64,000 nucleotides of DNA from the IMG/VR virus record IMGVR_UViG_3300032272_000002, positions 32,001-96,000 of that record. One strand, 5' to 3'. The number at the start of each line of letters is the position of its first letter. Within the stretch, counting starts at the first letter, position 1. The notes under the pieces are model-generated. The model was given only the letters and a program-made list of their open reading frames with translations, made no database searches and was not told the DNA's origin. The position numbers and the translations under genes were made by a program. This stretch comes from a virus. Positions 1,475-32,200 of this stretch are shown here, piece by piece.

Positions 1475-2899
1475 ATGGCTACATACGAAGAATTCGAAGA
1501 TATCGCCCCTGGGCTGGAACGCTGGCACGGACTGTTCAGCCAGTTCTGGTCAATGGGTGCTCCCCGCTTCACCAGGAAAATCCCCACGGCAGCCGTGGCC
1601 TTCAATAAGAAGGGTCAATACGCGGAGTTCCTGTTCAATCCGGAATTTTGGGATCAAATGTCCCCGACCGCTCGCGAGTTCATTGTCTGCCACGAATGTC
1701 TGCACGTTCTGTATGAGCACGGACTTCGCATGGTCAACGCTGAGCAGAAGCAGGTTGCCAACCTCGCCATGGACGTGGTAGTAAACCACTCACTAATCGA
1801 CAACTTCGGATTCACCCACGAAGATCTCGACTGCGACGTTCGTTTCGACGATCAACCGGAAGATTCTGAAACAAAAACTCTCGATGAAGTCCTTATCTGG
1901 AAGGACAAAATGTACGAGAAACCGGACGAGATCGCTGACAACGAAACGTTCGAATATTACTATCGCAAGCTCATGGAGCGTGTCGATGAAATGATTAAGA
2001 ATGGAGAAATCTCCACGGACGGCAACGGCATCCCGATCTCCATGCCCGGTAGCGGTAGCGGCTCTCCTCTGGACGAGCAGACGATTGACTCTCACGAATT
2101 CATGGAGGGTGGATCGGGTACGCAGGCCGGTGAGGATGAAGACGAAGATGGAAGCGGCTCAGGCGATTCAGAGGATATCGACGGCGAGCCTGACAAGGGT
2201 CTCGAAGGTCTTGAGCAACTGCCGGATGAAGTCGTCGATGATATGGTTGACGAAATCCGTCGTCAGCTTAATCCTGATGAAAACTCCCAAATGACCAAGG
2301 CCGGTGTCGGTCGCGGTGACAAGGTTTACAAGGTGCGTTTTGCCAAGAAGAAGGCTCTCCAGAAATGGGAAAAGCTAGTTCAAATGTGGACTGCCTCTGG
2401 CGAGGCACCCGACGACGTTTGGACCCGCAAGCACCGTCGTCACCACATGCTTCCGCCTCAATTCATGATGCCCTCCGAGCATGAGGAAGAGACCGAGAAC
2501 GCCAAGGTCAACGTGTGGTTTTTCCAGGACATTTCCGGTTCCTGCACGTCCTACCTGGACGACTTCTACAACGCCGCTCGCACCTTCCCTGAGCACTTCT
2601 TCCAGCTTCGCATGTTCGGCTTTGATACAGGAGTTATCGAGGTCGATCCAAAGAACCCGAATCTCCGGGCTGGCGGCGGCACCTGCTTCCGCTGCATCGA
2701 GGATGCTATTCAGCAGAAAATGAAGACGACCGGCTGCCGCTACCCTGATGCGGTGTTCGTCTTCACTGACGGATGCGGCACAGACGTTTCCCCACAATAC
2801 CCTGACCGCTGGCACTGGTTCCTGGAAGGCCACTACCAGAGCGAGCACAACATCCCGAAGGAAAGTAGTCGCTACCAACTCAAGGACTTTGTGAAATGA
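1475..2899 (+). CDS. Metallopeptidase-like (HExxH) + VWA-like protein (DUF2201-type MoxR partner)
   Basis: HECLH, NLAMDVVVN, acidic linker, DISGS MIDAS-like motif, GGGT, FTDG. Confidence 0.8.
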   Translation: MATYEEFEDIAPGLERWHGLFSQFWSMGAPRFTRKIPTAAVAFNKKGQYAEFLFNPEFWDQMSPTAREFIVCHECLHVLYEHGLRMVNAEQKQVANLAMDVVVNHSLIDNFGFTHEDLDCDVRFDDQPEDSETKTLDEVLIWKDKMYEKPDEIADNETFEYYYRKLMERVDEMIKNGEISTDGNGIPISMPGSGSGSPLDEQTIDSHEFMEGGSGTQAGEDEDEDGSGSGDSEDIDGEPDKGLEGLEQLPDEVVDDMVDEIRRQLNPDENSQMTKAGVGRGDKVYKVRFAKKKALQKWEKLVQMWTASGEAPDDVWTRKHRRHHMLPPQFMMPSEHEEETENAKVNVWFFQDISGSCTSYLDDFYNAARTFPEHFFQLRMFGFDTGVIEVDPKNPNLRAGGGTCFRCIEDAIQQKMKTTGCRYPDAVFVFTDGCGTDVSPQYPDRWHWFLEGHYQSEHNIPKESSRYQLKDFVK

Positions 2900-3279
2900 G
2901 AATTCGTACGCACGCCGAGGTCAACGTTCAATACTCTATTACCTATAAAAAGAGAAAGTACCATTACAACTATCAATTCGTCACCCATGGCGGCGAGTTG
3001 CGGTTCCGGGGACTTAGCGTTGGCCACTACGGCGTGGTACATGATTTTCAAAAAACCACTGGACGCGACTGGAATGAGGTGGTATTCTTGTATCCTGGCA
3101 TGCAGAAGAACGTCGCCCACGACAAGTCGTACGGGCAGCCTGTTCTAAAGGTCAGCGACCTACCTCCCGACATTCGGGATATCACCAAGAGAAAAGACCT
3201 AGTAATTCCTGAGGCTGTGAAAGAAGCCGCCCAACGCAAAGTAAAATTAACAGTAAGTGATGAATTCGCAAAACGATAA
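2896..3279 (+). CDS. hypothetical protein
   Basis: ATGA-coupled to the previous gene. Confidence 0.6.
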   Translation: MRIRTHAEVNVQYSITYKKRKYHYNYQFVTHGGELRFRGLSVGHYGVVHDFQKTTGRDWNEVVFLYPGMQKNVAHDKSYGQPVLKVSDLPPDIRDITKRKDLVIPEAVKEAAQRKVKLTVSDEFAKR

Positions 3280-3862
3280 AGTAGACAGATATCTTGGCAG
3301 GGTGTACGAATCCCTGCCGGAAGCTGGCGTACAGTTTGCCCAGATTCCTTGGGCTCTCATATCACTGGCGACCTTTGGCTTGGGCATGTGGACACTGTAC
3401 GGAGGCGGCCCCGAAAGGGGGCTCACGTCGGCCCACGCACTACTCTGGGTTTTCATTGTGCTCGACGGCATCATGCTGTCTATTCTGGCACTAGCGTCCT
3501 TCGGGCACGCCTTTATCTCTGCAAAAGACCCGGTTGCGGGAGATAAGGTCCTATTTACTAGCGAATACAGGTCAAATTGGCTGAGTAAGTTTACTTCCTA
3601 CACTGATGCACCGTTGATGCTTGTTTTAGCAGTCCTGGCGTCCTGGCCAGTAGCTATCTTTGCCCTCTCTCTCCTGCTGGGTGCAGAGTGGATGGGAAAG
3701 TATATCCATAAGAACAACAAGCAGGAACGTCGAAATGAATTGGCAAAAATGGATGAGGCCGAGCTTCACGCACTCTTCGCTACTGATGAAGAGGAAGAGG
3801 CTGTTGGCAGGGATATTGACGATCTGTTGAAAGAATTTGAGAACTTTCAGGGGGATCTCTAA
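3257..3862 (+). CDS. hypothetical membrane protein
   Basis: 3-4 hydrophobic segments, acidic C-terminal tail. Confidence 0.7.
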   Translation: MMNSQNDKVDRYLGRVYESLPEAGVQFAQIPWALISLATFGLGMWTLYGGGPERGLTSAHALLWVFIVLDGIMLSILALASFGHAFISAKDPVAGDKVLFTSEYRSNWLSKFTSYTDAPLMLVLAVLASWPVAIFALSLLLGAEWMGKYIHKNNKQERRNELAKMDEAELHALFATDEEEEAVGRDIDDLLKEFENFQGDL

Positions 3863-3879
3863 GAAAATCCGGAAAAGTG

Positions 3880-3908
3880 TTGGACGTTCAGGAGATTGAG
3901 TGTATAAT
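3880..3908 (+). promoter_or_regulatory. sigma70-like promoter upstream of the large ncRNA
   Basis: TTGGAC-17bp-TATAAT. Confidence 0.6.
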
Positions 3909-3914
3909 ACCCTT

Positions 3915-5390
3915 GTCCCCGAAGTTGTCGGGAACGTCTGATACGGAAAGTGGCCTTCCAGTAGGGGAAACAGCGGCCACACCCAGGTAAGTGAATAATT
4001 TACAAGGGCACCCTACTGAACTCGGGTCCAATGCCTTCGGGTACGATCACGGAGCGAGTCAACTCCAAAAGCAAAGCCTTTCTCGGGCCAGTCTTTGACA
4101 ACTAGGTGAAGTAAAAACGACCCCGGCTTAGTGGCCGGGGTCACCGTACACTTCTGGCTTCGGCCAGGAGCTTGACCGTGTTCTCCGGTCATAAAACCCA
4201 CGTCCTTTAGTTCGATTAACCGGGGCTGGGCACCGAAAGGTGATAGTGAAAAGCCGGTATCAACTACGCCCATACCAACGGGAAATAGAGATACTTGGTC
4301 GGTGTGGGATAGATTTCCTGGCAGAAATCGAAACCCACCAGAGGTTCGCGTTATGAGATTCCCTGCCAGGGTAATAATTCTAGTGCGTTCAGAGTGGATT
4401 TGGTTACTTATCAGAACAACGGTTATGGTCATCTTTATGATAAAAGATCCTGGGAAACTGTCCGATAGGGCAGAAAGTAACACTTTGTGTAGCAGAAAGC
4501 GTCTCTGCTCCATCCTGAAAGGGAGGGAGTGTCCCGCGAGGGGTATTTTTGAGAATGTCTCAGGCATTCAAAGAGGTACGTGCGAGCCGAGGGTGTCGAT
4601 CAACACTCCGAAGCGATCACAGAATGATGCACAATGTATCGGCTGCTGTTGGCTGCCCGAGAGGGAAACGACAGTGACGAAGCCAGTGAAGAGACTAATC
4701 TCTCGTTCACAGACCGTTTCTACCGTGCTGGTGGGGCGGGATCACTGGTGTCCAGGGCGAGATCTTGTGATAGCCTGATTACGAACACTCCGTGTTGTAG
4801 CGGATAGTGAGGGTGGCGAAAACCTCATGATGAAGTGGAGTAACTCCCATAAAAACAGCTCCTAGTCTCGGAGAGACCGGGGCGGACCCCCGTAAGTTAT
4901 CCATGGTGGAGAAAGCGTCCTTATGAAGCTAAGGCCGAGGGAAGCGTTCTACGAAGCTAAGGTAACAGTCCACCATCCAACGCGGGCAGATGAGTCCCCA
5001 ATATGTTCTTGCATAGCAAGCTGAACTAGTGGTCGATAGATAAAATAAGAAGTTTTTGGGGGATCGACCCGTTGCCCGCGTTACTTTCAGGTCTGGTGAT
5101 AGTAGAAATAGATCCTTCCGTTTGATCGCGGTGTTCTATCAGAGAAGTGAAGATAACCCAATAATGGGATCCATTGGACTCCAATCCTTTTCGTACCAGA
5201 CCTTCAATGCAAACGACACTCTCGCTACGAGGCCATTTGCTTTAAATGGGCAAGGATAGCGGTCTTCTTACTGGCAATCTTTGACTAGAAAGAGATAATA
5301 CTACATCCTCTATGGAGTAAGCTGATAGGTTATCAAAGCAAGTTGGCTCATCGTCTAAAAATAGGACGCCCCTTATTTTATTTATATACC
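3915..5390 (+). ncRNA. Large structured non-coding RNA (GOLLD/ROOL-like class; family unassigned)
   Basis: No credible ORF for ~1.5 kb; many UUCG/GNRA hairpins and long-range helices; lies directly upstream of a tRNA cluster. Confidence 0.65.
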
Positions 5391-5441
5391 CAAGGGGAAA
5401 TGCAGGTGGATAATCCTGTTGAGTCAGCGTTTTAGAACAAT

Positions 5442-5568
5442 GTCCCTGTAGTGTTAATGGCAATCGATAAATGGTGGTACTGAAAACATCGATTGGGCTC
5501 GCATGCAAGCCTTAGCACGCTTCCTCGATAGGGAAGTAGAGTAGGTTCGATTCCTGCCGGGGACGCCA
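5442..5568 (+). tRNA. Atypical tRNA with a ~50-nt D-loop insertion (anticodon GAT by geometry)
   Basis: GTCCCTG/CGGGGAC-G-CCA acceptor, GTAGG-TTCGATT-CCTGC T arm, CTTCC/GGAAG anticodon stem. Confidence 0.6.
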
Positions 5569-5718
5569 TTCACGCCTCTGGACATAAACCAGAATCACTG
5601 TCGATTGGGATAAGACGCTGGTAGTAGACCAATCCGCCAGAGGCGTTTAAAATTGGCATGGAGAGTGGAGCTTAGCGGCTTGCCTTATTAGAAATAGTCA
5701 AAACTCTCCACCGAACAT

Positions 5719-5795
5719 GCCGTATTAGTGTTCAACGGATAGCACGCCACCTTGCCATGGTGGAAGTATCGGTTCGAATCCGATATATGGTTCCA
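5719..5795 (+). tRNA. tRNA-Gly(GCC)
   Basis: Cloverleaf, loop TT-GCC-AT, encoded CCA. Confidence 0.9.
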
Positions 5796-6559: not shown

Positions 6560-6633
6560 GGGCACGTAGCATTGTGGAATGCAGCCGCCTCTAAAACGGT
6601 AAGAAGCGAGTTTGACTCTCGTCGTGCCCTCCA
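6560..6633 (+). tRNA. Amber suppressor tRNA (anticodon CTA)
   Basis: GGGCACG/CGTGCCC-T-CCA acceptor; GCAT/ATGC D stem; loop CT-CTA-AA; GCGAG/CTCGT T arm. Confidence 0.85.
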
Positions 6634-8280: not shown

Positions 8281-8500
8281 AATTATATTTATGCTAAATC
8301 AGAGCGGATACACGACGCTGACGTTTCCAGTGTCGATTGATACGAACCTCTGGTCGCGTGGGCGTCCGTTCGGCTGGACAGCGAGGCAACTATTAAAGAA
8401 ACACTATAATTTATGTATAGGCGGCGGGTCGAGTGGAGTCTTTGACTAGAAATATTCTAGGAGACGTAGAAGCGTTGAAGCCCGCCGCCGCCTTTTTCCA

Positions 8501-9430: not shown

Positions 9431-9691
9431 ATGGACAGAGTATTTCGAATCACGCGACTGGACACGTATTCTGCTGGTGGAGAAACTTTTTCGAAAAGGA
9501 AGCTCTACGACAACGAAAAATCTTTCCGCTCTATGTGGAGTAGATTTATCACAGAAGATAAGAAATTCAATAACACCAACATGCGGCCATATGGGTCTCA
9601 TCAGATTCAAAATACAAAGCACGACTTTGAAATGATTGCAGAAGAATTCATCAATCAATCATGGACCGAAATCGATAAATACGTCTCTTAA
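9431..9691 (+). CDS. hypothetical protein
   Basis: ORF immediately after a promoter. Confidence 0.55.
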   Translation: MDRVFRITRLDTYSAGGETFSKRKLYDNEKSFRSMWSRFITEDKKFNNTNMRPYGSHQIQNTKHDFEMIAEEFINQSWTEIDKYVS

Positions 9692-9692
9692 A

Positions 9693-10025
9693 ATGTACGA
9701 CCAAACTATCCTCCACCTTGATCGCCTTCCTCTCGCTGACCTCGGCAAGTTCAGCATGATTCTCTCGCAAATGCTGACAAGCGATCAGCGTGCGGACCTG
9801 AACTGTACCCATCCCGACCTGATGGCGGCCATGGGAGCTTTCGAGTCGCAAATCCCGCAAGTTAAGGGCTTCCAAGTCACGCAAGAAACGTGGGGTCTCG
9901 CTGCTGCTGCCATGCAAGGCAACAAGAAAATTCAGGCCATCAAGGAAGTTCGTGCTGGCACGGGCATGGGTCTGAAAGAAGCGAAAGAATACGTGGACAT
10001 CCACATGCAGTATTTGCAGCCATGA
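9693..10025 (+). CDS. Protein with ribosomal protein bL12 (L7/L12) C-terminal domain
   Basis: NKKIQAIKEVRAGTGMGLKEAKEYVD matches the bL12 CTD signature. Confidence 0.85.
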   Translation: MYDQTILHLDRLPLADLGKFSMILSQMLTSDQRADLNCTHPDLMAAMGAFESQIPQVKGFQVTQETWGLAAAAMQGNKKIQAIKEVRAGTGMGLKEAKEYVDIHMQYLQP

Positions 10026-23641: not shown

Positions 23642-23726
23642 GCCCGAGTGGTGGAACTGGAATACACATCAGACTTAAAATCTGACGCCTAACGGATTGC
23701 GGGTTCGAATCCCGCCTTGGGTACCA
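23642..23726 (+). tRNA. tRNA-Leu(TAA)
   Basis: CT-TAA-AA, V arm, CCA. Confidence 0.92.
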
Positions 23727-23737
23727 CTAACATTATC

Positions 23738-24205
23738 ATGCATAAGATTATCTTTCTAGACGTTGACGGAGTACTCAACTGTGCTGCTACGTGGGACGGC
23801 CCGCACGCAGACGGTTTCGACACTCTTGATCCAGCTATGTGCGATAATCTGGCCCAAATCGTACGAGCAACGCAGGCCATCGTGGTTCTGTCCTCTACGT
23901 GGCGACTATACGACGACACAGGGCTTGCCAAGCTAACAGTCTGGCTTGCTGAACGAGATATTACTATCCATTCGCATACTAAGGATCTCAGTTTGACAGA
24001 TCCACACGTTTCGCGAGGCAAAGAAATTGCTCTGTGGCTTGATGAGCACGAAGAGGAGTTTCCTAGATTAGAGCGTAATTTCGTCATCTTAGATGATATG
24101 ACAGATATGCTCCATTCTCAAAAATCAAGTTTTGTACATACAAGTAATAAAGATGGGCTAACACAAGCTCATGTGGACAAAGCTATTAAAATATTAACAG
24201 AATAA
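23738..24205 (+). CDS. HAD-family phosphatase (Swiss-army-knife RNA-repair type)
   Basis: IIFLDVDGVLN, VLSSTWR, RGKEI, VILDD. Confidence 0.85.
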   Translation: MHKIIFLDVDGVLNCAATWDGPHADGFDTLDPAMCDNLAQIVRATQAIVVLSSTWRLYDDTGLAKLTVWLAERDITIHSHTKDLSLTDPHVSRGKEIALWLDEHEEEFPRLERNFVILDDMTDMLHSQKSSFVHTSNKDGLTQAHVDKAIKILTE

Positions 24206-29630: not shown

Positions 29631-30155
29631 ATGCACACGAAAAAACTCATTATCATTCGAGGCCCTTCGGGCACGGGCAAGTCAACACTGGCTGCTCATT
29701 TGCTAGAACGCCCAGCAATTACCTGGGAAGAGATCCCAGCTACGACATGGCATGAAGCCGACCACTTCTTTATGAAGCTCAACGGTTTTCTGGAGCCAAC
29801 GTATGAATTTGATTACAACAAGCTCTATGCCGCTCATCGCTGGAGCATGTCAAACGTGGAGCGAGACCTCTTCTTGCAGCGTCCGCTCGTTATTGTGTCC
29901 AATACTTCTATGGCCCACAAAGAAGTCAAGCCCTACTTGAGCTTGGCAGAGGAGTACGGTTATGAATACGAAGTCATCCGTACGCCAGGCCCGTGGGATA
30001 TTGACACTCTCGTCGAGCGTAACGCCCATGGTGTTCCGCGAGACATTATCGAACGACAAATCTCACGCTATCAACCTATGACCAGTGAGACCGAATGGTC
30101 TGACCTCACAATCTTTACCAATGGACAACGAAAAATTAGATCCGAAACAAAGTAA
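29631..30155 (+). CDS. P-loop kinase (polynucleotide-kinase/AAA_33-like)
   Basis: IIRGPSGTGKST, EADHFF, RNAHGVP. Confidence 0.8.
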   Translation: MHTKKLIIIRGPSGTGKSTLAAHLLERPAITWEEIPATTWHEADHFFMKLNGFLEPTYEFDYNKLYAAHRWSMSNVERDLFLQRPLVIVSNTSMAHKEVKPYLSLAEEYGYEYEVIRTPGPWDIDTLVERNAHGVPRDIIERQISRYQPMTSETEWSDLTIFTNGQRKIRSETK

Positions 30156-30439
30156 GTGCTTCACCTGTAAGTTCGGTCTCTGCATGATGCAGGAGAACAC
30201 CGCTTATCTAGAGGCGAATTTTCCCATGATGGGGCCGCCGCCCGATCTCTTTGGTCAGCAAGCACCAGAGCCCGAGCTTGATTGGACGGACTCTGAGCCT
30301 GAGCCTGACGAAGATCCCAAGAAGATTGTAGAGAGCCGTATTTGTTCTCTATGTTATTGGGCACCGGCAAACATCAAACTTGAAAGTCCTATTGTGAATT
30401 CTGCTGTTGTAAAAGAGTGTAGTCGATACGAAAAACGAG

Positions 30440-30979
30440 ATGACTAAGACATTTGTAACAAGTGATACCCACTTCAATCACGCCAACATTCTAAAATACT
30501 GTCCCGACAGGGGTTATGCCTCTGTCGAGGACATGAATGCTGACATGATTAAGGTGTGGAATGAGACAGTGGCCGCCGAGGACACCGTTTACTTCCTTGG
30601 TGACTTTGCTATGGGTAAAAAGGAATTCCATCTGGAGTTTCTCAAAGCCCTGAATGGAACCATTCGTTTTGTACCAGGCAATCACGACTACTATATTCGC
30701 AAGCTAAATAAGCGTGGCGAGCTACCTGAGAACGTAGAGATGCTACCACCTATTTATAATCTGAACCAAGACGGTCAGATCTATGTCTTTTGTCACTTCC
30801 CCATCGCTGAGTGGGAGGCCATGACAGGACACGCCAGCGACGGCAGGACGGGGGCTATCCATTATCACGGTCATGTTCATGGCCAGAACGGGGCAGTCAC
30901 GGGGCCTGATCGCTACGACATTGGCTGGGACGTATACGGCAAACCTATTGAACTGCATGTGCCTTATGAAAACATTTGA
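30440..30979 (+). CDS. calcineurin-like metallophosphoesterase
   Basis: SDTHFNH, LGDFA, GNHD, HGHVH. Confidence 0.9.
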   Translation: MTKTFVTSDTHFNHANILKYCPDRGYASVEDMNADMIKVWNETVAAEDTVYFLGDFAMGKKEFHLEFLKALNGTIRFVPGNHDYYIRKLNKRGELPENVEMLPPIYNLNQDGQIYVFCHFPIAEWEAMTGHASDGRTGAIHYHGHVHGQNGAVTGPDRYDIGWDVYGKPIELHVPYENI

Positions 30980-31165: not shown

Positions 31166-32200
31166 ATGAGAGACCCTATCCTCTTAAAGAAGATCGAGCA
31201 AGAAGTCCAGGCTGGCAATGTTGTTGCCAGTGAGTGGGAGGGTCTAACCGTATATAAGTATACGCAAGAATGTCACCATGAAAATAGATGGAATGATATT
31301 AACAGACAGTGCCGGGGAATCATCCTAGACAAGCATGGACGAGTCTTCGCCCGTCCTTTTTCCAAGTTCTTCAACCTCAACGAAGTCGCGGAGACCATGT
31401 ACGACCAGCTACCGTGGGATTGCGGCGTACAAGTATTCGAGAAATTGGATGGCTCCTGTGGCACCTTGTTTCGCCACCCGCAGCATGGCGTATGCCTATC
31501 CACTCCTGGCAGCATGCAATCTGACCAGGCCAAGATGGGCACCGAGATACTCCGTCGTAGCTCGTGGGGCACTAACTTTATGGCCGACCTACCAGACGAC
31601 TGCACTCCTATCTTCGAGATTATCTATCCCGAAAACCGCATCGTCGTAGACTACCGAGGTCGCGAAGACCTTGTGCTGCTATCTATCTTTCAATTGAACG
31701 GAGAAGAGTGGCATCAGAATAGAGTAGACGCTATTGCTGAGAAGCATGGCATCACCCGCCCTCGCCGCTTCGACCTAGACGTTACTGACATTCAATTCCA
31801 GGACAACGAGGAGGGATACGTGTTCCTCTTCGATAACGGACTGCGTGTCAAGTCTAAGAGTCCAACGTACCTGCGGATTCACAGGCTGCTTAATTACCTG
31901 AGCCCAAAGGGCGTCATTGATCTTATCCGTGGTCATGAGTACAGAACCACGCTGGCCCAATTGCCAGATTCTATTCAGCAGGACTTCGACGACATCAGGG
32001 CGTACGTCCAGACTATGTTCGACGAGACCCGCAACAAAGTGGAGGCATTCCACCTTGCGGTGCCGCAAGGCACACGCAAGGACCAGGCTATGTGGATTAC
32101 GGGATGCGTGGAGCGTGAGCTTCAAGGGCTCGTCTTCGCAAAACTAGACAACAAAGATATCACGGAGAGTCTATGGCGAGTAGTAATCAATACTCTCTAG
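31166..32200 (+). CDS. T4 Rnl1-type RNA ligase
   Basis: CRGII, KFFNLNE, EKLDGS, FEIIYPENRIVV, EGYV. Confidence 0.9.
   Translation: MRDPILLKKIEQEVQAGNVVASEWEGLTVYKYTQECHHENRWNDINRQCRGIILDKHGRVFARPFSKFFNLNEVAETMYDQLPWDCGVQVFEKLDGSCGTLFRHPQHGVCLSTPGSMQSDQAKMGTEILRRSSWGTNFMADLPDDCTPIFEIIYPENRIVVDYRGREDLVLLSIFQLNGEEWHQNRVDAIAEKHGITRPRRFDLDVTDIQFQDNEEGYVFLFDNGLRVKSKSPTYLRIHRLLNYLSPKGVIDLIRGHEYRTTLAQLPDSIQQDFDDIRAYVQTMFDETRNKVEAFHLAVPQGTRKDQAMWITGCVERELQGLVFAKLDNKDITESLWRVVINTL

What the first reader, a model, noticed from the sequence alone, without database searches (positions are those of the whole stretch)
3915..5390. ~1.45 kb highly structured non-coding RNA heading the tRNA array
Seen: its own promoter (3880-3908) and no convincing ORF in an otherwise tightly packed genome. 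Hairpins include GACCCCGGC/GCCGGGGTC (4119-4142), CTGGC-TTCG-GCCAG (4154-4167), CACC-GAAA-GGTG (4231-4242), CCC-GCGA-GGG and CCC-GAGA-GGG. Long-range helices include CCTGGCAG/CTGCCAGG (~4318-4369), AACGCGGGCA(4979)/TGCCCGCGTT(5073), GGTCGAT(5031)/ATCGACC(5063) and GGTCTGGT(5090)/ACCAGACC(5195). Known: GOLLD and ROOL are large ornate phage RNAs often found beside tRNA genes, usually shorter than this. Inference: an extended member of these classes, a new class, or several abutting RNAs. The boundaries are approximate.
Basis: partly seen in the sequence, partly recalled or inferred. Interest (0 to 1): 0.75.

Follow-up and report, generated by a model that had tools for sequence, protein, structure and literature searches.

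The report
New 600-base ornate phage RNA
The gene-free stretch is not one 1.45-kb RNA but a string of RNA genes, and its centrepiece is an uncatalogued, intricately knotted RNA of about 600 bases, found in six large uncultured phages, with a sequence signature that copies of it pair with each other; its job is unknown.

Summary
In a 170-kb phage contig, a conserved sigma70-type promoter (3880-3908), a pseudoknotted leader and a boxA-like site head an operon of separable RNA modules. Its core, 4173-4775 (about 600 nt), occurs in six phage loci at 56-90% identity. One relative has it at another locus and strand; another lacks it but keeps both flanks. A 165-pair structure is 95.8% paired with 67 two-sided changes (0/500 shuffles). 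It has five crossing long-range helices, four with compensatory changes. One hairpin loop stays palindromic while changing (GATC, GGCC, GTAC), the signature of inter-chain kissing loops in OLE and GOLLD. No Rfam family matches; my models do not hit ROOL, GOLLD or OLE. Both ORFs named as refuters are broken in the homologs. 4783-5568 holds swappable modules: two small pseudoknotted RNAs and two aberrant tRNAs. Best reading: a new family of large ornate phage RNA that self-assembles like ROOL/GOLLD/OLE. Expression and function were not tested. The scan noted RNAs of this kind on other DNA, but none sharing this sequence.

The parts
3880..3908 (+). sigma70-type promoter (-35 at 3880-3885, -10 at 3903-3908)
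   Evidence: an equivalent promoter stands in L004, L005, L177, L201, L008 and L277
3911..4091 (+). Conserved leader with a pseudoknot: stem 3950-3955/3975-3980, whose loop (3959-3966) pairs with 4011-4018
   Evidence: Present in 6 loci, with a two-sided change in L004 and L008; absent from L277
4092..4101 (+). boxA-like antitermination signal (rRNA-leader type)
   Evidence: Conserved in all six core-bearing loci and in L008; function inferred from knowledge of NusB/NusE boxA
4119..4167 (+). Two variable hairpins between boxA and the core
   Evidence: Covary among close relatives; 77-nt insertion in L005; different hairpins in L201 and L008; two tRNA(-like) genes instead in L277
4173..4775 (+). 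Core: about 600-nt ornate RNA of a new family, 29 helices by the tool's count, five crossing long-range pairings (4218-22/4420-24; 4318-23/4364-69; 4450-55/4558-63; 4501-05/4759-63; and 4707-11/4766-70 across 4682-88/4743-49)
   Evidence: Six homologs; helix census; pair counts
4593..4606 (+). Hairpin with a palindromic loop tetramer (GATC; GGCC in L005; GTAC in L201): candidate inter-chain kissing loop
   Evidence: the only one of 237 variable adjacent column pairs that is self-complementary in all six sequences
4783..4975 (+). Swappable slot: here a module with a 28-nt-spaced tandem repeat, ending in a CCACCA sequence
   Evidence: Shared only with L177; L004 has an anticodon-less tRNA here, L005/L279 and L201/L008 have other modules
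4979..5082 (+). About 105-nt end-paired module with a likely pseudoknot (4995-5001/5056-5062)
   Evidence: In the window, L177 and L004, with compensatory changes in both stems; absent from L005 and L201
5089..5203 (+). End-paired element seen only in this phage; possibly a degenerate tRNA-like RNA
   Evidence: z -1.8; no homolog found
5209..5285 (+). About 75-nt pseudoknotted module (5209-13/5236-40; loop 5224-27 pairs with 5257-60)
   Evidence: Five phages, with compensatory changes in the pseudoknot; no Rfam match
5345..5428 (+). tRNA-shaped RNA with no conserved anticodon (variable loop), a non-standard D loop and an 8-nt T loop
   Evidence: Nine copies in eight loci; cloverleaf fold, z -2.4; missed by ARAGORN
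5442..5568 (+). tRNA body with a two-hairpin insertion of about 50 nt in the D loop, C33 and an encoded CCA
   Evidence: Five phages; weak tRNA model hit

Best explanation
The stretch is the head of a phage RNA operon built like an rRNA operon. Host sigma70 polymerase starts near 3914, passes a pseudoknotted leader and a boxA-like site, and transcribes on through RNA modules into the tRNA array (signals shown in sequence; their use is inferred). tRNA-type processing of the neighbouring tRNA and tRNA-like units probably frees the modules (inferred). The main product is a separate RNA of about 600 nt (4173-4775) that folds into four multi-helix domains tied by five crossing long-range pairings (fold shown by covariation). 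It most likely self-assembles: the palindromic loop at 4597-4602 pairs with the same loop of a second chain, and some of the long-range kissing pairs may link neighbouring chains, as in ROOL and GOLLD (inferred from the sequence signature, about 60%). The assembly probably acts during infection as a stable, abundant, dispensable scaffold, cage or decoy rather than as a catalyst (inferred by analogy, about 35-40%). It is a new family that works like ROOL/GOLLD/OLE, not a member of them.
For: Six loci at 56-90% identity and constant length, 611-621 nt aligned. 165 pairs: 95.8% of cells paired, 67 pairs with two-sided change, 0/500 shuffles; slid controls 38-44% paired. Blind helix census: 12 covarying helices against 0-1 in 12 column shuffles. 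The most distant homolog (L277), found later, supplied compensations for long-range pairs that were invariant or nearly so in the first five (4450/4563, 4682/4749, 4501/4763). Independence of the core: L277 carries it at another locus and strand behind other neighbours; L008 keeps leader, boxA and the downstream module but has about 125 nt of other sequence in its place. Palindromic loop covariation matches the signature described for OLE L9.3 and GOLLD L21a (10.1101/2024.12.08.627333). Location by phage tRNA islands, as for ROOL and GOLLD (PMC5737381).
Against: Only six sequences, four of them closely related; several long-range pairs rest on a single two-sided change in one phage, and the last crossing helix has none. 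The structure was derived from the same alignment on which it was counted. The palindrome rests on two changed sequences. Covariation cannot tell intra- from inter-chain pairing for the other kissing loops. No evidence bears on biological function. The host is unknown.
Confidence: 0.6

Rival explanations
1. The core is a real RNA, but works as a monomer or simple dimer that binds host or phage proteins (OLE-like ribonucleoprotein, sponge or anti-defence decoy) rather than as a cage.
For: Long invariant single-stranded stretches (e.g. 4410-4419, 4495-4500, 4676-4681) could be protein sites. One palindromic loop is enough only for a dimer, which is what OLE forms. The island carries translation and RNA-repair genes: an L7/L12 C-terminal domain, an RNA ligase, a HAD of RNA-repair proteins.
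Against: No partner gene travels with the core: its neighbours differ between L277 and the rest. No TROVE/Ro60 gene in the genome.
Confidence: 0.2
2. The core is a ribozyme, for example an RNase P-like enzyme that matures the phage tRNAs.
For: Heavy pseudoknotting and invariant junctions. The pair 4501-05/4759-63 can be extended by 3 bp across a bulged pyrimidine, which resembles RNase P helix P4 (from my knowledge of RNase P). It sits at the head of a 27-tRNA array.
Against: The bulged base is C in all six, not the conserved U. The extension competes with another conserved helix (4707-11/4766-70). The order of helices differs from RNase P. No RNase P, group I or group II model matches any of four homologs at E<=5-10. 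L008 keeps its tRNAs without the core.
Confidence: 0.08
3. The core is a very remote ROOL, GOLLD or OLE that current models miss.
For: Same size as ROOL and OLE; same genomic setting as ROOL and GOLLD; a boxA-like start also precedes the GOLLD and ROOL examples fetched. One weak local alignment of L005 to a GOLLD 5' region (score 37, 3/300 shuffles, best of several tries).
Against: Family models that ring strongly on true members give nothing in this genome. My profile and three covariance models give nothing on those members with filters off. Five crossing helices against three pseudoknots in ROOL; no variable internal linker; the ends do not pair in a long terminal helix.
Confidence: 0.08
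4. The functional unit is one continuous RNA of about 1.45 kb (3915-5390).
For: One promoter and no predicted + strand terminator in 3915-5208, so the precursor is probably continuous. GOLLD RNAs can carry tRNAs inside a variable linker.
Against: Everything after 4776 is exchanged between relatives. The core can be lost or moved alone. No conserved pairing between the core and downstream modules was found; the long-range complements seen in the window alone are not kept in homologs. The 5390 end lies inside a tRNA-like element.
Confidence: 0.05

Closest known systems
ROOL RNA (Rfam RF03087)
   Same: About 580-600 nt, many multistem junctions and pseudoknots, phage tRNA islands, kissing loops, apparently dispensable.
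   Different: No sequence or model similarity either way. Five crossing pairings against three. No long helix joining the two ends, which the EFDG1 ROOL locus shows in its flanks. No variable internal linker. Found only in one clade of uncultured 167-177-kb phages.
GOLLD RNA (Rfam RF02032)
   Same: Phage RNA beside tRNAs and pseudo-tRNAs, boxA-like signal at the start of the example fetched, self-pairing palindromic loop (L21a).
   Different: Lacks the conserved 3' domain that defines GOLLD. Shorter (600 against more than 800 nt). Both halves are conserved, with no internal tRNA linker.
OLE RNA (Rfam RF01071)
   Same: About 600 nt; loop palindrome switching between GATC and GGCC, as in OLE L9.3.
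   Different: No similarity by model or alignment. OLE is chromosomal in Bacillota with dedicated protein partners; this RNA is phage-borne with no linked partner gene.
Bacterial RNase P RNA
   Same: One long-range helix can be drawn with P4-like geometry; tRNA-related context.
   Different: Bulged C instead of U, different helix order, no specificity domain recognised, no model match.

Membership tests
GOLLD (RF02032) | Conserved 3' domain of about 416 nt matching the covariance model | tested here: not met
   No match in the genome at E<=10 or in four homologs; the model finds a mycobacterial GOLLD at 4.5e-40; reciprocal searches negative
GOLLD (RF02032) | Similarity to the variable 5' domain | tested here: inconclusive
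   One GOLLD 5' region compared; best local score 37, 3/300 shuffles, best of six tries; my covariance models give no hit there
GOLLD (RF02032) | Location in phage or prophage tRNA islands | tested here: met
ROOL (RF03087) | Match to the 574-position model | tested here: not met
   None at E<=10; positive control EFDG1 1.2e-61; reciprocal searches negative
ROOL (RF03087) | About 580 nt, multiple junctions and pseudoknots | tested here: met
   About 600 nt, 29 helices, five crossing pairings; number and order differ from ROOL
ROOL / GOLLD | RNA-only nanocage formation | not testable with these tools
   Only an indirect signature: palindromic loop covariation
OLE (RF01071) | Match to the 616-position model | tested here: not met
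   None at E<=10; 29 of 61 control genomes ring; reciprocal searches negative
OLE (RF01071) | Palindromic loop that covaries at adjacent positions (dimer bridge) | tested here: met
   the feature is described in 10.1101/2024.12.08.627333
RNase P RNA | P4 helix with bulged U inside conserved regions I and V; model match | tested here: not met
   Bulged base is C in all six; no Rfam match
Group I intron | Conserved R and S elements forming P7; flanking exons | tested here: not met
   The R-like (4691) and S-like (4960) strings of the window are not conserved and lie in different modules; no Rfam match; no interrupted gene
Group II intron | 5' GUGYG start and domain V | tested here: not met
   No Rfam match; the look-alike at 4383 is not conserved
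tmRNA | tRNA-Ala-like domain plus tag reading frame | tested here: not met
   ARAGORN and Rfam find none
Any expressed RNA gene | Transcript with defined ends | not testable with these tools

The most novel reading that the evidence does not exclude
The 600-nt core founds a further, independently evolved class of protein-free RNA nanocage or higher-order RNA assembly, encoded as a plug-in module of an rRNA-like phage operon together with several undescribed small RNAs; it could instead be a new large ribozyme.
Probability: 0.35. Interest if true: 0.85.

Novelty: new variant of a known kind. Interest (0 to 1): 0.62.

Why it matters
Bacterial and phage RNAs of this size and complexity are rare, and the few known orphan classes (OLE, ROOL, GOLLD) gave unexpected RNA-only assemblies when solved. 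Whether cage formation is general among large natural RNAs is stated as open in the cryo-EM paper. This RNA is unrelated in sequence, has a covariation-backed fold with defined ends, a predicted inter-chain contact that can be mutated and rescued, and a natural null allele in a sister phage. It can be tested at once by in vitro transcription, mass photometry and cryo-EM. Limits: the family is narrow so far (six loci), expression is unshown, and the scan has flagged other orphan phage RNAs of this general kind.

Tried and rejected
blastn against cultured phages and plasmids gave no homolog. All homologs came from contigs that encode relatives of neighbouring proteins, so the sample is biased to one clade. 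L281 and L290 (more distant phages) lack the core within the DNA fetched, which is not the whole genome. Group I intron: suggested by R-like and S-like strings, rejected because they are not conserved. Group II, tmRNA, protein-coding: rejected (see membership tests). Twister, pistol and HDV-like readings of the two small pseudoknotted modules were considered from memory and not supported by Rfam; no cleavage test was possible. Long-range complements in the window alone (4081/4655, 4154/4678, 4473/5080, 4068/5236) are not conserved and were dropped. GOLLD was not found in three phages and five mycobacterial genomes tried as controls before one was found. No TROVE gene. R-scape was not available. 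The host could not be assigned (nearest record is an uncultured phage).

Full report
Setting. The window is part of a 169.7-kb linear phage contig. Genes are packed on the + strand up to 3862; then there is no credible ORF until 5890, and 27 tRNA genes follow from 5719. Rfam finds only tRNAs in the window, and nothing meaningful in 3850-5750 at E<=10. Single-sequence folding z-scores are strong only in patches, so homologs were needed.

Homologs. DNA searches of cultured phages, plasmids and the pattern-scannable collections gave nothing. Relatives of the upstream VWA-like protein and membrane protein led to contigs L004, L005, L177 and L201, each with an ORF-free gap at the same position that matches the window. 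A more distant 177-kb phage (VWA protein 44% identical) carries the same RNA on the other strand, about 9 kb upstream of that gene (L277). Pairwise identities of the six cores are 56-90% and aligned lengths 611-621 nt.

Anatomy. Comparison splits the region into modules. (a) Promoter 3880-3908, conserved everywhere. (b) A leader with a pseudoknot (3950-4018), in six loci, with a compensatory change in two. (c) A boxA-like site at 4092-4101, in all loci with the core and in L008. (d) Variable hairpins. (e) The core, 4173-4775. (f) A slot after the core filled by at least four different modules in different phages, most ending in a CCA-like sequence. (g) Two small pseudoknotted modules (4979-5082 in three phages, 5209-5285 in five). 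(h) An anticodon-less tRNA-shaped RNA (5345-5428; nine copies) and a tRNA with a D-loop insertion (5442-5568). L008 is the decisive allele: it has leader, boxA, 5' hairpins and the same downstream module as L201, but about 125 nt of other sequence where the core should be. In L277 the core follows two tRNA(-like) genes and has no leader. So the core is gained, lost or moved alone, and nothing after 4776 belongs to it.

Fold of the core. RNAalifold on six sequences gives 170 pairs, 67 with two-sided changes. A blind search for helices kept in all six found 12 with compensation against 0-1 in column shuffles. My curated structure has 165 pairs: 95.8% of cells pair, 67 pairs change on both sides, no shuffle of 500 reaches this, and slid controls fall to 38-44%. 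The structure came from the same alignment, so these controls lean in its favour. A less circular check: long-range pairs listed from five sequences as invariant or nearly so were later kept by two-sided changes in L277. Five pairings cross other helices: 4218-22/4420-24 (three columns compensated), 4318-23/4364-69 (loop-loop, two columns), 4450-55/4558-63 (one), 4501-05/4759-63 (one), and 4707-11/4766-70 (no two-sided change, but it crosses the compensated helix 4682-88/4743-49). Several hairpins end in GNRA-type loops, and several junctions are invariant.

Sign of self-assembly. The 6-nt loop of hairpin 4593-4606 holds a palindromic tetramer: GATC in four phages, GGCC in L005, GTAC in L201. 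Of 237 adjacent column pairs with three or more dinucleotide types, it is the only one that is self-complementary in every sequence. Adjacent bases cannot pair within one chain, and the same kind of switch marks the inter-chain kissing loops OLE L9.3 and GOLLD L21a (10.1101/2024.12.08.627333). This rests on two changed sequences, so it is a strong lead and not proof. In ROOL and GOLLD some covarying 'pseudoknots' proved to be bridges between chains, which may hold for the kissing pairs here.

How it most likely works. Shown: an RNA gene with a conserved ornate fold, behind conserved transcription signals. Inferred from established knowledge: boxA recruits NusB/NusE as in rRNA leaders and lets polymerase read through a long untranslated operon; RNase P and tRNA 3' maturation of the neighbouring tRNA-like units release the modules. 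Inferred from the loop signature (about 60%): the core forms dimers or higher assemblies without protein. Inferred by analogy only (35-40%): the assembly is an abundant, dispensable scaffold, cage or decoy during infection. Rivals are a protein-binding monomer or dimer (0.2), a ribozyme such as an RNase P-like enzyme (0.08; a P4-like geometry can be drawn, but the bulge is C and the extension competes with another helix), a remote ROOL/GOLLD/OLE (0.08) and a single 1.45-kb RNA (0.05).

Comparison with known families. GOLLD, ROOL and OLE models find true members in controls and nothing in this genome; Rfam finds nothing in three further homologs. In reverse, my profile and three covariance models covering 4300-4780 do not match ROOL of phage EFDG1, a mycobacterial GOLLD or three OLE RNAs with filters off. 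One weak alignment to a GOLLD 5' region is not significant after multiple tries. It works like these RNAs in size, setting and self-pairing signature, but fails membership of each. Paper searches found no description of it; the library omits many subscription papers. Earlier scan notes describe other orphan RNAs of this kind in other phages, but sequence look-ups with the window core and with L277 found no shared family.

Verdict. A real, uncatalogued family of about 600-nt ornate phage RNA inside a modular RNA operon; new variant of a known kind; interest 0.62. Expression, oligomer state, host and function remain untested.

Noticed in passing
window 5442-5568; L177:3122-3244; L004:6259-6385; L005:8938-9061; L279:609-738: tRNA with a two-hairpin D-loop insertion and C33. 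In L177 and L005 the two inserted loops are complementary to each other (kissing); in the window, L004 and L005 a loop is palindromic. The anticodon loop is not fully conserved (differs in L279).
   Followed up: partly
window 5345-5428 and eight other copies (alignment A8): Family of anticodon-less tRNA-shaped RNAs with conserved D- and T-loop look-alikes and a freely varying anticodon loop; two to three tandem copies in L201. Possible decoys or processing punctuation.
   Followed up: partly
window 5209-5285: Small pseudoknotted RNA in five phages whose order of elements recalls pistol ribozymes (from memory); no Rfam match.
   Followed up: partly
window 4979-5082: End-paired 105-nt module with a likely pseudoknot, in three phages, always directly after a CCACCA sequence.
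   Followed up: partly
window 4828-4866 and 4925-4962: A 12-codon frame behind a hairpin-sequestered ribosome-binding-like sequence, and a 10-nt direct repeat at 28-nt spacing; both shared only with L177 (about 90% identical), so not informative yet.
   Followed up: no
window 6560-6633: tRNA with a CUA anticodon (amber suppressor type; ARAGORN labels it Pyl), also present in L004, L005, L008, L177 and L277.
   Followed up: no
window 9636-10025: Protein ending in a ribosomal L7/L12 C-terminal domain (PF00542); similar genes in L004 and L290.
   Followed up: partly
window 31166-32200, 23717-24205, 29631-30979: RNA-repair-type genes inside or beside the tRNA island: T4-type RNA ligase, HAD_SAK_2, an AAA_33 kinase-like protein and a metallophosphoesterase.
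   Followed up: no
window 5572-5646, 5655-5721, 8420-8490: Further end-paired, tRNA-sized elements among the tRNAs; a 14-nt string at 5278 recurs at 8439.
   Followed up: no
window 2900-3049: Strong folding z-score (-5.6, + strand) inside the 127-aa ORF 2896-3279, which has no PHROG match and is missing from several relatives (L177 has a gene of the same length).
   Followed up: no
L005:7660-7745; L005:8355-8620 and L279:1-280; L201:13120-13250 and L008:12885-13150: Other structured modules occupy the slots before and after the core in relatives; none matched Rfam where tested.
   Followed up: no
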